From assembly GCF_048403405.1 (NCBI RefSeq), contig NZ_CP183129.1: DNA of 64,000 nucleotides; one strand, given 5' to 3'. Position numbers and translations under genes: made by a program. The first letter of the stretch is position 1. Each line of letters begins with the position of its first letter. The notes under the pieces are model-generated. The model saw only the letters and a program-made list of their open reading frames with translations. It was not told the origin of the DNA and did not search any database. The stretch comes from Escherichia coli. GTDB taxonomy: Bacteria > Pseudomonadota > Gammaproteobacteria > Enterobacterales > Enterobacteriaceae. This document shows positions 37,893 through 42,313 of the stretch, piece after piece.

Positions 37893-38219
37893 TCAAGGAC
37901 GTGACGGCGTAAAGATAAATTGTCTCTTCACTCCCTGACAGGGGCGATTCTTTTCAAATCGCCATTTCGCCATGGCCTTCACCACTTCATCACGAAACAA
38001 ATTATGAGGCTCTGAGCGGAGAAAAACGATCCGTGTCACAGTCCCATCAGCACCAATATCGAACTTAACCTCAACCAGCCCCTTGATATAATTTGCTGCA
38101 GCATATTCCGGATATCGTGGATACACCGTCACTAATTGCCGGGGCTCATCAGCTTTTTGCTGCGAGCATCCCACTGCCAGGACAGATAACAGAAAAAGTA
38201 GTAAAAGGCGTCTTTTCAT
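37893..38219 (-). CDS. lipoprotein with TonB C-terminal-like domain (108 aa)
   Basis: Signal peptide + lipobox (LLLLFLLSVLAVGC, Ser at +2); body aligns to TonB C-terminal domain (YPxxA...G.V.VKFDxxxDGxV...P...F..EV..AM..WRxE). Confidence 0.6.
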   Translation of the reverse strand: MKRRLLLLFLLSVLAVGCSQQKADEPRQLVTVYPRYPEYAAANYIKGLVEVKFDIGADGTVTRIVFLRSEPHNLFRDEVVKAMAKWRFEKNRPCQGVKRQFIFTPSRP

Positions 38220-38529: not shown

Positions 38530-39003
38530 TTATTTCAGGCACTGAGTGCGGATATAGTCCTGTGCCCCTTCCAGTTGCTTGTGCATCGTCATCAGCCGCT
38601 CTCTGAGGGTGAAATAATCCCGTGTAACGGTGTCTGCCAGTTGGGGGCCGGTTGCATTATCCACGCCGGAGGTGGTGGGGGCTTCACGCACGGAGCCTGG
38701 ACAGGTGGCGTTGATCCGCAGGCGCTTACGACCAGCGGCAACGTCAGCGCGAAGAGTTTCATTTTCAGCTCTCGCATCGGCTAATTCCCTCGAGTATTTT
38801 GCATCGAGCGCAGCAACATCGCGCTGGCGCACCTGCATATCAGTAATGGTTGCGTTCGCCAGCTTCAGTTCACTGGCTTTGTTATCGCGCTGCGCTTTGT
38901 AGGTAATCGCGTTATCACGGTAATGGTCTGTTGCCATCCACAGCGCACCACAGGCCACCAGCAGAATAACGATAAACGCGGAAAGCATTCGGTTTATGTT
39001 CAC
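38530..39003 (-). CDS. Rz: i-spanin Rz
   Basis: 157-aa ORF similar to lambda Rz ([15 protein letters not shown] ... [10 protein letters not shown] ... [17 protein letters not shown]). Confidence 0.9.
38592..38777 (-). CDS. Rz1: o-spanin Rz1 (embedded in +1 frame of Rz)
   Basis: 61-aa ORF with lipobox and proline-rich core [14 protein letters not shown], as in lambda Rz1. Confidence 0.8.
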
Positions 39004-39131
39004 CCCAGCAACCCCGACGAAGACAACATCATCCAGGCCATGGAAAGAAAAAGAGCAACCAGCATTAGTGAAAATGAAATGCCGACAATTACACAGAGGA
39101 TCTTCGCCAGCGTTATGAGTTTGTCTGACAT
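39000..39131 (-). CDS. hypothetical small membrane protein (43 aa)
   Basis: Strong RBS (GGGAGG) before ATG; single hydrophobic TM segment; sits between R and Rz. Confidence 0.35.
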
Positions 39132-39145
39132 GCTTAATCCTCCCT

Positions 39146-39292
39146 TCACGATTTCAACGCAATGACCAGTTTTGCCAGCCCATACAGCATCGGGGACACA
39201 GCAACACCGACCGCCACCCACTTAATGGCAAAAGCCAGTGCTCTGCTGATGTCATCAGTTACAGGCGCTTTCAGTTCAAGGCCATTTTTCAT
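39146..39292 (-). CDS. hypothetical small membrane protein (48 aa)
   Basis: Short ORF with one hydrophobic segment between R and Rz; start uncertain. Confidence 0.3.
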
Positions 39293-39484
39293 AGTCAACC
39301 TCAACAGAATTCGTTTACACTTCGCCATGTTCTCCCTTGCCTTACTCAAGGTCAGAAACACAAAACCTCGCTTGGTGCCAACAAACGGGGTTTTTACTTT
39401 TATTCACTTACGTTTCGCCAGTTCGCAGGATTTCGTGTTATCCGCCCGCGTGGCCATTCCTCATTTTTCAGCAAAATATTCTGC

Positions 39485-40018
39485 TTATCTGTCGATACCC
39501 CAGCACGCCAGCGCGCTCTCCTGGTCACGACGGGATACCTGACCGTAACAGTTGTTTGAACGAATACGGCAGTCTCTGCCACCGTCCTTAATCCACCAGC
39601 GAATCGCTTCGCAGGCACCTTTTCGATCACCAGCATTAATTCGTCTGTAAAACGTCGACGGGAAACACTTACCGGGATCAATGTTGTACGGACAGAATGA
39701 CGCGATCCCCGCTTTCTGGGGTTCGGTCAGCGGCACTCTGATGTTTTTCTCCACCCACGCCAGCGCTTTATCACGCTCAATGGCGTTAACCTGGTCGCAT
39801 TTTTCCTTCGACAACTTCATGCCCGGAACGACAGGTTTGCCATCCACCATGATGGCACCACGGCAGATGGTCCAGATACCTGCACCATCACGGTATGCCG
39901 TGGTGTGGTTGCCTTCCTTTTCATCCAGAAACTGGTCGAGAATGTCAGGCGCAGGCGCACCAGCGGCAATCAGCGCCAGAACGGCAGCCGACAGGCCGTA
40001 TTTGATTTTGGTGTTCAT
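39485..40018 (-). CDS. R: SAR-endolysin (GH24 lysozyme R)
   Basis: 177-aa ORF; N-terminal Gly/Ala-rich weakly hydrophobic SAR segment then T4-lysozyme-like E...D...T catalytic pattern (EKEGNHTTAYRDGAGIWTICRG). Confidence 0.85.
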   Translation of the reverse strand: MNTKIKYGLSAAVLALIAAGAPAPDILDQFLDEKEGNHTTAYRDGAGIWTICRGAIMVDGKPVVPGMKLSKEKCDQVNAIERDKALAWVEKNIRVPLTEPQKAGIASFCPYNIDPGKCFPSTFYRRINAGDRKGACEAIRWWIKDGGRDCRIRSNNCYGQVSRRDQESALACWGIDR

Positions 40019-40054: not shown

Positions 40055-40945
40055 CTAAATACGCACTTTAAGATAAGTCAGCCCCGGATGAAGCCAGTAA
40101 GCCGGCACTTTTTTAAAGGGTGGAGTATTAAAATCACGAAGAAGAGCCTCCCGCACAATTGCATCCTTATCAGCACCACTGGCCAGCGCTTCAATCTCAG
40201 CGGCTACCTGAAGATATCCCATGCAACGGCCAACGCGCTTCATCAGCCCCTGCTTTTTATTGTTCTTCAGGTAATCAATGGCAAATTCAATGAGCTCCTC
40301 ACTGTGCTGGTGCGATGGAGGTGTTACTTTCCCATTTTCTGAGATGGTTATTTTCCCAGCATCACCGGATACAACAAAGGATGGCCGGTTACACTCCCAT
40401 TCCGGGTCACTGAAATTATCATTATGAATACTGAAACACTCTGCGAGATTTCTGCTCATCACTTTCCGACAATAATCGTCAAACGCAGCAAACTGCTTTT
40501 CATCGCCAGAAGGCACCAATATCGACCATTTCTTATTCAGCTCAACGACGTAGCTCTCCAGTTTTTCAATACGTGATTCAACATCATCTTTTTCTGACCG
40601 CAGTGTTGACGGCGGCATCTTCAGAGAACAAGTAATTCTTCCCGGTAGCTTTCCTTTGTAGGTTATCAACATATCCTGCGCCTCTAAAATTACGGGGCGC
40701 TTTTCCGGCAACGGTTCGTTCCATTCACATAACCCGGCAGCAACATCCATGAAAAACTGCTTCGCCTGCTTTTTCGCCTCAGCTTCGTAAAACTCCAGCG
40801 TGGCACCTTCAGTACGGTCAAGACTAATCGCCACATCTGGCAACAACAGCGACGCTTGCCCGTCACCTTCCGACTTCACAGTAACAGTAACCTTATCCCC
40901 GTAATTATTTATCCCCTTAACAACCAGTTCATATTTTTTATTCAT
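40055..40945 (-). CDS. hypothetical protein (296 aa) between holin and endolysin
   Basis: Start abuts holin stop with GGGGAGAG RBS; no family recognised by inspection. Confidence 0.55.
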   Translation of the reverse strand: MNKKYELVVKGINNYGDKVTVTVKSEGDGQASLLLPDVAISLDRTEGATLEFYEAEAKKQAKQFFMDVAAGLCEWNEPLPEKRPVILEAQDMLITYKGKLPGRITCSLKMPPSTLRSEKDDVESRIEKLESYVVELNKKWSILVPSGDEKQFAAFDDYCRKVMSRNLAECFSIHNDNFSDPEWECNRPSFVVSGDAGKITISENGKVTPPSHQHSEELIEFAIDYLKNNKKQGLMKRVGRCMGYLQVAAEIEALASGADKDAIVREALLRDFNTPPFKKVPAYWLHPGLTYLKVRI

Positions 40946-40949
40946 CACT

Positions 40950-41165
40950 TTACTCTCCCCGCGCCGCCTTACGCCGGTCCTCTTTGATTTTGAAATACAG
41001 GTTAGTCAGATATGTCAGCAGCCCAAACAGCAGACTCCCCAGCACGCCTATTGCCGCCCACTGAGACGGGGAAACCCTGTCCAGCAACTGCAGGAACCAG
41101 TAGCCCGTTCCCACCGCTGACGTGGTGTATGACACACCTGTTGTGATTTTTTCCATCTGGTACAT
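40950..41165 (-). CDS. S: pinholin (S21-type holin, dual-start MYQM)
   Basis: 71-aa ORF nearly collinear with phage 21 S ([45 protein letters not shown]); two in-frame starts. Confidence 0.85.
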
Positions 41166-41661: not shown

Positions 41662-41921
41662 GGTTCTTTCCACCATCTGAAAAATGATTCTTTAAAATAC
41701 CTGACATGTAATACAGAAAAAACACAAAACCATACCTTAAATAAAAACCTCATCATCAAGCAGATATGCATGGATAAACTACAAGACGAGATATAAACCA
41801 CCCTGCATTTAAATAAACAATAAACAACATCAGAAAAATAATTCTGCTCTATGGTTTACAATCAAAAATATCATTTATACTTTTCAGAACATCACCAGCA
41901 AGGCATAAACAAGGAAACTAA

Positions 41922-42257
41922 ATGAAGTGGATTGTGATTGATACAGTTATCCAGCCATCATGCGGAATATCTTTTTCAGTCATATGGAGTAAAATAAAAT
42001 TAATAATCTGGTATCAATCGGATGCTTTCTTACCTCCTGAAAGTATATTTACACTGACTCACACAGGTATCATGCTCAATAACAAAGTGCTACCTGTAAC
42101 CATTTACAACGTAGTACCATTCAATAAAACATTCTGGAATTTAATCAAAAACAGCCAGGAATGCCCTACAAATACAGATAACGTATTGAATGAATGCTTT
42201 AATAACCGTTGCACTCTGCAAATATGTCCTTATGGGCTAAAACAACAAAGTCCATAA
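41922..42257 (+). CDS. hypothetical Cys-containing protein (111 aa) in AT-rich island, opposite strand to late operon
   Basis: AAGGAA RBS 6 nt before ATG; very AT-rich upstream region; no recognisable family. Confidence 0.4.
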
Positions 42258-42270
42258 GGAGTTTACTCAC

Positions 42271-42313
42271 ATCTGACAAAATCAATATAAACAGCCCCTC
42301 CGGAGAGGGGCTG
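42271..42313 (-). terminator. intrinsic terminator (minus strand) upstream of lysis cassette
   Basis: Hairpin CAGCCCCTC-CGGA-GAGGGGCTG followed on minus strand by TTTATATTGATTTT. Confidence 0.5.

What the first reader, a model, noticed from the sequence alone, without database searches (positions are those of the whole stretch)
39000..39292. Two tandem small membrane ORFs between endolysin and spanins
Between R and Rz lie a 43-aa ORF (strong GGGAGG RBS, single TM segment) and a 48-aa ORF with a hydrophobic segment. Small late-expressed membrane peptides here could modulate pinholin/SAR-endolysin timing or act as a membrane toxin pair.
Basis: partly seen in the sequence, partly recalled or inferred. 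Interest (0 to 1): 0.35.

Follow-up and report, generated by a model that had tools for sequence, protein, structure and literature searches.

The report
Two conserved small phage membrane genes
Between the cell-wall-degrading enzyme gene and the outer-membrane-disruption genes of this E. coli prophage lie two real, conserved genes for tiny membrane proteins. They are carried by about a third of sequenced E. coli, nobody has characterised them, and they probably fine-tune host-cell lysis without being essential to it.

Summary
On the minus strand, between R (39485-40018) and Rz, lie orfA (39146-39292, 48 aa; 60 aa from an upstream in-frame ATG at 39328) and orfB (39000-39131, 43 aa, SD AAGGGAGG).

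Both are real genes:
- They stay intact across diverged relatives, with in-frame pN/pS of 0.2-0.45.
- Shine-Dalgarno sites are kept in unrelated upstream contexts.
- RefSeq annotates both as hypothetical proteins.
- An orfB homologue carried ribosome footprints in EHEC Sakai (XECs191).

OrfB occurs in 1749 and orfA in 1597 of 5426 complete E. coli genomes. OrfB has a strongly hydrophobic helix; orfA has only a weakly hydrophobic, SAR-like one.

- OrfA and orfB occur independently of each other.
- They sit beside four endolysin families, including soluble ones paired with canonical holins.
- They almost always lie directly upstream of Rz.

They are therefore neither pinholin/SAR-specific nor an obligate pair.

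A conserved intrinsic terminator precedes orfA and no promoter was found. OrfB's last codons carry the Rz ribosome-binding site.

Best reading: late-only, non-essential accessory inner-membrane proteins of the spanin-proximal lysis module. Their function is untested. Interest is moderate to low.

The parts
39000..39131 (-). orfB: a 43-aa single-pass membrane protein (RefSeq WP_001280932.1; phrog_4906). Its last codons, CTG CTG GGG TGA, form the Rz ribosome-binding site and overlap a GTG start.
39139..39146 (-). Shine-Dalgarno AAGGGAGG of orfB. It starts at the last base of the orfA stop codon.
39146..39292 (-). orfA short form, 48 aa, starting at the family-invariant Met (M13 of the long form). 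The core is VTDDISRA followed by a weakly hydrophobic helix.
39293..39328 (-). In-frame 12-codon basic extension (MAKCKRILLRLT) giving the 60-aa long form of orfA (RefSeq WP_001446668.1; phrog_1115). It is almost invariant at nucleotide level and also contains the SD of the short form.
39326..39351 (-). SD AAGGGAG of the long form, partly inside a small hairpin (CCTTG-AGTAAGG-CAAGG).
39353..39395 (-). Intrinsic-terminator hairpin (AAAAACCCCG...CGAGGTTTTGTGTTTCTG). It is conserved upstream of orfA in every lineage examined.
39396..39484 (-). Conserved spacer between R and the terminator, with a second conserved hairpin at 39424-39447. It travels with orfA behind different endolysins.
38530..39003 (-). 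Rz i-spanin (PF03245). The probable GTG start at 39003 overlaps the orfB stop (GTGA). NCBI's pipeline instead calls the ATG at 38988.
38592..38777 (-). Rz1 o-spanin lipoprotein, embedded in Rz.
39485..40018 (-). R, a 177-aa lysozyme with a weakly hydrophobic N-terminal, SAR-like segment.
40950..41165 (-). S, a phage-21-type class II holin (PF04971).

Best explanation
OrfA (48/60 aa) and orfB (43 aa) are two real, independently mobile genes for small inner-membrane proteins. Charge distribution suggests an N-in topology. They belong to the spanin-proximal end of lambdoid lysis cassettes.

Shown:
- Both are conserved as coding sequence.
- They sit between the endolysin gene and Rz, whatever the holin or endolysin type.
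- They have no detectable promoter of their own.
- They lie directly behind a conserved intrinsic terminator.
- OrfB abuts Rz so closely that its last codons are the Rz ribosome-binding site.

Inferred:
- They are made only from Q-antiterminated late transcripts, together with Rz/Rz1, and orfB is translationally coupled to Rz.
- They act at the inner membrane as non-essential accessory factors that tune the last steps of lysis. Candidates are the timing or efficiency of membrane permeabilisation, or spanin deployment.
- OrfA may be made in two forms from two in-frame starts. These differ by four net positive charges at the N-terminus, the same logic as holin/antiholin dual starts.
For: Coding status:
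- All distinct full-length variants are intact (19 for orfB, 16 for orfA).
- In-frame pN/pS is 0.44 and 0.21 pooled, and 0.20-0.50 in pairwise comparisons at pS up to 0.79.
- Position 2 of codons is the least variable.
- SD sites are present in three unrelated upstream contexts of orfB.
- RefSeq annotates both genes, and both match PHROG families.
- Ribosome footprints were reported for the Sakai orfB homologue XECs191, which is annotated as EDL933_1392 in EDL933.

Position:
- OrfB lies immediately upstream of Rz in every fetched locus that has a complete Rz, apart from those with a truncated orfA' copy inserted between them; 276 phage records carry a full-length orfB match, and the six of those fetched from that search showed the same position.
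- OrfA sits upstream of Rz behind Phage_lysozyme and GH19 endolysins; behind GH108 and M15 endolysins it holds the same post-endolysin position, but those cassettes have no Rz.
- It also sits next to Rz in a Salmonella prophage remnant.

Expression logic:
- The terminator is conserved in all lineages, with varying inner stem and loop.
- No sigma-70-like site was found on this strand.
- The junctions are a GTGA overlap, or an 8-nt gap with GGTGGGGTGA serving as the Rz SD.

Dual start of orfA:
- The internal Met is invariant.
- A strong SD precedes the long start in E. coli (ATG) and in Salmonella and GER2 (GTG).
- The basic extension is kept in distant members such as MRQYKRILMRLT and MKLYRKFFRMRLS.

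Membrane character.
Against: - There is no functional experiment of any kind.
- Lambda, phage 21, P22 and the K-12 prophages lyse without either gene, so neither is essential.
- Some orfA homologues lie downstream of tail-fibre genes, outside any lysis cassette (L178-L181, L186).
- The R-Rz junction is a known insertion hot spot (ant in Stx phages), so position alone could reflect mosaic history.
- The ribosome-profiling signal is low (translatome RPKM 12.6) and came from uninduced cells. It does not show late expression.
- Some lineages lose the basic extension of orfA (MDSKEDNDKYNRISVEAN), and its nucleotide invariance may simply reflect the ribosome-binding region of the short form.
Confidence: 0.45

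Rival explanations
1. They are morons: cargo genes that benefit the lysogen, for example small membrane proteins that exclude superinfecting phages or alter the envelope. On this view they simply occupy a permissive junction of the late operon.
For: - Presence/absence mosaicism occurs at the same junction where Stx phages carry ant.
- Some orfA homologues lie after tail-fibre genes, the other classical moron site.
- Footprints of the orfB homologue were seen in uninduced Sakai cultures.
- Cargo lipoprotein genes (TonB_C lipoprotein, bor, the 60-aa lipoprotein) lie next door.
Against: - No promoter-like site was found on the strand.
- A conserved terminator lies directly upstream, not downstream.
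- The coupling to late genes is tight.
- No hit was found in the defence-system library.
- The low uninduced signal is compatible with spontaneous induction in a few cells.
Confidence: 0.22
2. [quoted passage not shown]
For: - In the window they follow a phage-21-type holin and a SAR-like lysozyme.
- The orfA helix is as weakly hydrophobic as a SAR domain.
- There is precedent for a membrane protein that controls SAR endolysin release: Mu gp25 (PMC9239132).
Against: - The same genes occur with soluble GH19, GH108 and M15 endolysins and with class I and other holins.
- They have no similarity to DUF2730 releasins.
- Linkage is to Rz, not to S or R.
Confidence: 0.08
3. They are membrane toxins (a toxin pair or type-I-toxin-like peptides) that depolarise the membrane.
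For: They are of similar size and have one hydrophobic helix, like Hok/TisB-class peptides (comparison from general knowledge). The upstream terminator could serve to keep a toxic product silent in the lysogen.
Against: - They have strong SDs and operon coupling, rather than the translationally silenced, antisense-controlled mRNAs of type I systems.
- No RNA family matched.
- The two genes are not an obligate pair.
- Up to 11 copies per genome are tolerated.
Confidence: 0.1
4. The peptides are incidental. The ORFs matter only in cis, as upstream reading frames that deliver ribosomes to Rz, or as spacer sequence.
For: The 3' end of orfB is the Rz ribosome-binding site with a GTGA overlap. The 5' extension of orfA is constrained at nucleotide level. 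Frameshifted and fused variants exist.
Against: - Purifying selection acts on the amino-acid sequence at near-saturated synonymous divergence.
- The transmembrane helix is preserved with conservative replacements at 63% identity in the L184 orfB.
- OrfA is conserved where no Rz follows.
Confidence: 0.08

Closest known systems
XECs191 (E. coli O157:H7 Sakai) / EDL933_1392: a small ORF reported as translated in EHEC ribosome-profiling studies (PMC5597208, PMC4765031)
   Same: It is a direct homologue of orfB, with the core sequence ISDKLITLVKSLCVLVGISF.... It is predicted to be an inner-membrane protein and lies immediately upstream of Rz.
   Different: It is the 933W-type allele (67% identity). 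It follows ant rather than orfA and has a different start context (MGWLMISDK...). The papers list it and do not study it.
PHROG families phrog_4906 (orfB) and phrog_1115 / 4493 / 3246 (orfA)
   Same: Strong full-length HMM matches (E 2e-23 and 4e-42).
   Different: All are labelled 'unknown function', so membership names the family but gives no mechanism.
P2 LysA (from general knowledge of P2 lysis genes Y, K, lysA, lysB, lysC)
   Same: It is a non-essential membrane protein encoded between the endolysin gene and the Rz/Rz1-equivalent genes, and it affects lysis timing.
   Different: LysA is about 140 aa with several transmembrane segments. No sequence similarity was found. The comparison was recalled, not tested here.
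Dual-start holin/antiholin pairs (lambda S107/S105, phage 21 S71/S68; general knowledge)
   Same: OrfA has two in-frame starts, each with its own SD. The longer product carries extra N-terminal positive charge, and a small hairpin overlaps the upstream SD.
   Different: The starts are 12 codons apart rather than 2-3. OrfA has one weak hydrophobic helix. It occurs alongside complete holins. No hole-forming activity is known.
Mu gp25 releasin (DUF2730; PMC9239132)
   Same: It is a small single-pass membrane protein encoded near the spanin genes that assists a SAR endolysin.
   Different: Gp25 is 99 aa, N-out/C-in, with a 73-aa acidic cytoplasmic domain. OrfA and orfB have no DUF2730 match and also accompany soluble endolysins.
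Lambda-type morons such as bor and lom (general knowledge)
   Same: They are small envelope-protein genes inserted at late-operon junctions, variably present among lambdoid phages.
   Different: Morons carry their own promoter and a downstream terminator. Here no promoter was found and the terminator is upstream.

Membership tests
phrog_4906 (orfB) and phrog_1115 (orfA), uncharacterised phage protein families | Significant full-length match to the family HMM | tested here: met
   E 2.1e-23 over residues 1-43 for orfB; E 3.7e-42 over residues 1-60 for orfA.
Holin | Membership of a recognised holin family | tested here: not met
   No Pfam or NCBIfam holin model matched any member of either alignment at E<=1.
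Holin | At least one transmembrane domain, a small size and a charged C-terminus | tested here: inconclusive
   OrfB has a strong transmembrane domain but an uncharged C-terminus (SSSGLLG). OrfA has only a marginal one and ends in KS.
Holin | Is the cassette's hole-former: lethal membrane permeabilisation that releases or activates the endolysin | not testable with these tools
   This needs expression and lysis assays. Every cassette examined already has a recognised holin.
Antiholin made by a dual-start motif | Two in-frame start codons, with the longer product carrying extra positive charge | tested here: met
   OrfA has ATG at 39328 and ATG at 39292, each with an SD. The extension MAKCKRILLRLT adds a net +4. 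Both starts are conserved in E. coli, Salmonella (GTG) and GER2.
Antiholin made by a dual-start motif | Both products are made, and the long form inhibits the short form or the holin | not testable with these tools
   This needs toeprinting, start-site ribosome profiling and genetics.
SAR (signal-anchor-release) domain | A weakly hydrophobic N-terminal helix rich in Gly/Ala/Ser that can leave the membrane | tested here: inconclusive
   The hydrophobicity of orfA (KD 1.88; Hessa-scale sum +4.0) resembles that of the R SAR segment (1.74; +5.5). However, the helix is C-terminal and release cannot be tested (scale values entered from memory).
Releasin (Mu gp25, DUF2730) | DUF2730 domain with an N-terminal transmembrane domain and a long acidic cytoplasmic domain | tested here: not met
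   No DUF2730 match. The proteins are 43-60 aa with no acidic domain.
Two-component spanin (i-spanin) | An N-terminal transmembrane domain plus a periplasmic coiled-coil domain long enough to span the periplasm | tested here: not met
   OrfB leaves at most about 14 residues beyond its helix, and orfA leaves 2-4. A normal Rz/Rz1 follows.
Moron | Own promoter upstream and terminator downstream, expressed from the prophage | tested here: not met
   No promoter-like site on the strand. The terminator lies upstream of orfA. The promoter scan is only a consensus match, so this is weak evidence.
Type I toxin-antitoxin | A small hydrophobic toxin whose mRNA is controlled by an overlapping antisense RNA | tested here: inconclusive
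   No Rfam family matched at E<=1 and no antisense promoter was seen. Absence of a described family does not exclude an undescribed RNA.

The most novel reading that the evidence does not exclude
OrfA and orfB would be a portable, previously unrecognised class of lysis regulators that plug in front of the spanin genes of many unrelated lysis cassettes.

OrfA would be a dual-start (60/48 aa) protein with a SAR-like helix, whose long and short forms oppose each other as antiholin and holin do. OrfB would be a membrane partner made in fixed ratio with the i-spanin Rz through translational coupling, controlling when or where spanins act.

This would be the first protein-level control of the outer-membrane step of lysis.
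Probability: 0.12. Interest if true: 0.65.

Novelty: new member of a known kind. Interest (0 to 1): 0.33.

Why it matters
Lysis cassettes of lambdoid phages are regarded as fully accounted for by holin, endolysin and spanins. Yet about 30% of complete E. coli genomes carry one or both of these extra membrane-protein genes inside the cassette, up to 11 copies per genome, and so do the medically important Shiga-toxin phages. No function has been assigned to them.

If they alter the time or completeness of lysis, they would affect phage burst size and, in Stx phages, the release of toxin. If they do nothing in lysis, they are an abundant class of prophage cargo worth explaining.

In either case, many phage records should annotate them. 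933W and most Stx-phage entries leave orfB uncalled.

Tried and rejected
- Family searches found nothing beyond PHROGs of unknown function. Libraries tried: Pfam, NCBIfam, PADLOC and PDB sequence profiles.
- An exhaustive profile search of 1.84 billion representative proteins with the orfA alignment found only 18 small relatives and no link to a larger or known protein.
- Rfam found no RNA family in the region.
- The R-orfA spacer as a whole does not fold better than shuffles (z = -0.8). Only the terminator and one short hairpin are conserved.
- K-12 prophages Qin and DLP12 have no homologue, so the well-studied K-12 small-protein catalogue does not help.
- Literature searches for the accession numbers, and for lysis-cassette descriptions in Stx phages, found no functional study.
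- A profile-profile 'hit' between the two families was rejected as an artefact: a natural orfB::orfA fusion protein was included in the orfA alignment.
- The idea that orfA/orfB plus the 60-aa lipoprotein replace spanins in phiP27-like cassettes was dropped. The lipoprotein occurs without them in phiP27 and downstream of a normal Rz/Rz1 in GER2.
- AlphaFold models are simple helices and were not used for fold searches.

Full report
**What is there**

The lysis cassette is on the minus strand. In order it contains:
- a phage-21-type class II holin (40950-41165, PF04971);
- a 297-aa DUF1327/YdfR-family ORF (40055-40948);
- the lysozyme R (39485-40018, PF00959), with a weakly hydrophobic N-terminal segment;
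- a 156-nt spacer (39329-39484);
- orfA (39146-39292 as 48 aa, or up to 39328 as 60 aa);
- orfB (39000-39131, 43 aa);
- Rz (38530-39003, PF03245) with embedded Rz1 (38592-38777);
- a TonB_C-domain lipoprotein gene (37893-38219).

The finding's coordinates match orfB plus the short form of orfA exactly.

AAGGGAGG lies 7 nt before the orfB ATG and begins at the last base of the orfA stop codon.

**Are they genes?**

The window sequence is identical to many E. coli chromosomes. In those, NCBI's pipeline annotates both ORFs as hypothetical proteins: WP_001280932.1 (43 aa) and WP_001446668.1 (60 aa).

Family searches gave the following:
- Both match PHROG families of unknown function: phrog_4906 for orfB, and phrog_1115, 4493 and 3246 for orfA.
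- Nothing matched in Pfam, NCBIfam, PADLOC or PDB.

Conservation is that of coding sequence:

| Measure | orfB | orfA (48-aa core) |
|---|---|---|
| Distinct DNA variants with an intact frame | 19 of 19 | 16 of 16 |
| Pooled in-frame pN/pS | 0.44 | 0.21 |
| pN/pS in the two shifted sense frames | 0.83, 1.35 | 0.82, 4.70 |
| Variable sites by codon position (1, 2, 3) | 16, 13, 21 | 18, 9, 37 |

Pairwise comparisons hold at high synonymous divergence:
- OrfB in the window against the L184 allele gives pS 0.56 and a ratio of 0.41.
- OrfA against Salmonella alleles gives pS 0.51-0.79 and ratios of 0.20-0.40.

One antisense frame is also open with a low ratio (0.53 and 0.34). It shares the wobble position with the sense frame, so this is the expected mirror effect. 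The sense frame has the lower ratio, the SDs, and the least variable second codon position.

OrfB keeps an SD-like sequence in three unrelated upstream contexts: after orfA, after ant, and after another insert.

Published ribosome profiling of EHEC Sakai lists the orfB homologue as XECs191 (PMC5597208):
- In LB the transcriptome RPKM was 30.0, the translatome RPKM 12.6, the ribosomal coverage value 0.43 and the coverage 0.55.
- The authors' classifier called it 'real'.

The EDL933 re-annotation carries it as EDL933_1392, predicted inner membrane (PMC4765031). The signal is weak and comes from uninduced cultures.

**How common, and in what company?**

| Gene | Complete E. coli genomes (of 5426) | Notes |
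|---|---|---|
| orfB | 1749 | 4656 places, up to 11 per genome |
| orfA | 1597 | 1043 full length |

OrfB is also found in 276 phage records, including 933W. There it lies unannotated between ant and Rz.

The orfA family is narrow. It comprises Escherichia and Salmonella prophages plus a few metagenomic relatives, with only 18 representatives among 1.84 billion proteins.

The architectures seen in the fetched loci are:
- R>orfA>orfB>Rz (the window's arrangement);
- R>ant>orfB>Rz (933W type);
- R>orfB>Rz;
- R>orfA>Rz (Salmonella, GER2);
- R>ant>orfA>Rz;
- orfB>orfA'>Rz, in which a 38-aa truncated orfA starts at a GTG overlapping the orfB stop (the common ST131-type arrangement);
- endolysin>orfA>orfB>lipoprotein, in phiP27-like cassettes without Rz.

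So the two genes are independent modules, not an obligate pair.

OrfA follows endolysins of four different families:
- Phage_lysozyme, which is SAR-like;
- a soluble GH19 with a class I holin;
- GH108;
- peptidase M15.

This argues against a role specific to pinholins or SAR endolysins.

The constant neighbour is Rz. Even a widespread Salmonella prophage remnant keeps an orfA-like gene fused end-to-start with Rz. A minority of orfA homologues lie after tail-fibre genes instead.

**Anatomy that bears on mechanism**

*OrfB.*
- It has a short N-terminus ([10 protein letters not shown], net +1), a very hydrophobic helix, and an uncharged tail of up to 14 residues.
- Its last codons (CTG G/CTG GGG TGA) are conserved. 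They provide the Rz ribosome-binding site.
- Rz either starts at a GTG overlapping the stop (GTGA, as in the window; this gives the typical MNINR... N-terminus) or at an ATG 8 nt later.
- The variable C-terminal third of orfB changes together with the N-terminal type of Rz. Simple linkage explains this equally well.

*OrfA.*
- It is modelled as two helices: residues 2-14 and 21-59.
- The conserved core starts at an invariant Met (M13): [16 protein letters not shown], then [20 protein letters not shown].
- Its hydrophobic stretch is only as hydrophobic as the SAR segment of R.
- Upstream of M13, a 12-codon basic extension (M.KYKRILLRLT) stays in frame.
- A strong SD precedes the long start in all lineages. 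In Salmonella and GER2 an extra 8-codon leader ORF precedes a GTG long start, again with a GTGA overlap.
- The extension is almost invariant even at synonymous sites (nucleotide diversity 0.018; pS 0.08 against 0.22 in the core).
- That invariance fits its second role as the ribosome-binding region of the short form (GAGG-N6-ATG).
- Distant members keep a basic and hydrophobic extension with different residues. Members outside lysis cassettes lose it.
- Two products, 60 and 48 aa, differing by four net positive charges, are therefore plausible but unproven.

*The terminator.*
- A canonical intrinsic terminator (A-tract, CCCCG/CGGGG stem, U-tract; 39353-39395) lies immediately upstream of the orfA translation signals, 41-67 nt before the invariant Met, in every lineage.
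- This holds whatever gene lies upstream. The outer stem is invariant, while the inner stem and loop vary.
- No promoter-like site was found on this strand between the holin and the TonB_C gene.
- The simplest reading is that orfA, orfB and Rz/Rz1 are transcribed only by terminator-resistant, Q-modified polymerase, that is, strictly late. This is inference from sequence.

**Most likely function**

I commit to the following reading: both are non-essential accessory inner-membrane proteins of the spanin-proximal lysis module, made late and, for orfB, in step with Rz. They would tune the final envelope-disruption steps.

I give this about 0.45. The estimate is separate from the roughly 0.9 confidence that they are real translated genes.

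Rivals, with my estimates:
- lysogen-benefit or exclusion morons (0.22);
- membrane-depolarising toxins (0.10);
- purely cis-acting upstream frames (0.08).

None can be settled without experiments. The decisive ones are listed separately.

**Comparison with what is known**

- The nearest functional analogue by position is P2 LysA. This comparison is recalled, not tested.
- The dual-start logic resembles lambda S107/S105.
- Mu's releasin gp25 is the precedent for a small membrane helper near spanin genes. It belongs to DUF2730, is larger and has a different topology.

OrfA and orfB fail or cannot be tested on the defining features of holins, releasins, spanins, morons and type I toxins.

As sequences they are already catalogued: RefSeq hypothetical proteins, PHROGs, XECs191 and EDL933_1392. 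What is new here is:
- the comparative picture of linkage to Rz across cassette types;
- the independence of the two genes;
- the conserved upstream terminator;
- the possible dual start;
- the overlap of the orfB end with the Rz start signals.

**Verdict**

This is an ordinary-looking but genuinely uncharacterised pair of accessory genes, of moderate to low interest unless a lysis phenotype is found.

Noticed in passing
window 40055-40948 (-): A 297-aa ORF lies between the holin and the endolysin. It has an N-terminal DUF1327/YdfR domain and a full-length match to phrog_1085 (unknown function). NCBI's annotation of the identical sequence calls only the first third, as a pseudogene.
   Followed up: partly
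window 37893-38219 (-): A 108-aa lipoprotein with a TonB C-terminal domain sits at the position where lambda carries bor. Its PHROG family (phrog_1267) is labelled 'Rz-like spanin', which looks like a positional mis-annotation.
   Followed up: partly
window 39353-39395 and 39424-39447 (-): A conserved intrinsic terminator and a second conserved hairpin (GCGGAT-AACACGAA-ATCC.GC) lie in the spacer between R and orfA. The spacer travels with orfA behind different endolysin families. No Rfam match and no promoter were found.
   Followed up: partly
L174-L177 and L006, just upstream of the orfA homologue: Salmonella and GER2 lineages carry an 8-codon leader ORF (MCREVCSL or MGREVLSL) between the conserved SD and a GTG start of the long orfA form. 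Stop and start overlap as GTGA. E. coli lacks these 26 nt.
   Followed up: partly
L184 3340-3522; L173 2655-2837; phiP27 (L185) 2495-2683; also GER2 and L156 downstream of Rz: A 60-aa lipoprotein (MKRKHWTHRMPRT...LLVGC...) follows orfA/orfB in phiP27-like lysis cassettes that have no recognisable Rz/Rz1. Elsewhere it lies downstream of a normal Rz/Rz1. How phiP27-like phages disrupt the outer membrane is unclear.
   Followed up: partly
L166, L087, L131, L121; proteins P0239, P0242: A common rearrangement, seen in ST131-type prophages such as that of JJ1886, places a truncated orfA (38 aa, GTG start overlapping the orfB stop) after orfB. Some genomes also have orfA>orfB>orfA' duplications or 83-aa orfB::orfA fusions.
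   Followed up: partly
window 38988-39003 (-): Rz more likely starts at the GTG at 39003, giving MNINR... with the usual basic residue before the transmembrane domain. NCBI's pipeline chooses the ATG at 38988 instead.
   Followed up: partly
L189/L190 2501-3101: A very widespread Salmonella chromosomal prophage remnant next to ypfH/tmcA begins inside the orfA extension. It keeps only an orfA-like gene (49 aa, ending RWW) and Rz, followed by DUF4222 and an IS110 element.
   Followed up: no
window about 41900-42300, inferred from locus L001 6023-6358: In the identical strain, an iraM (anti-adapter protein) gene is annotated just upstream of the holin region, on the opposite strand. It is a host-regulator cargo gene inside the prophage late region.
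   Followed up: no
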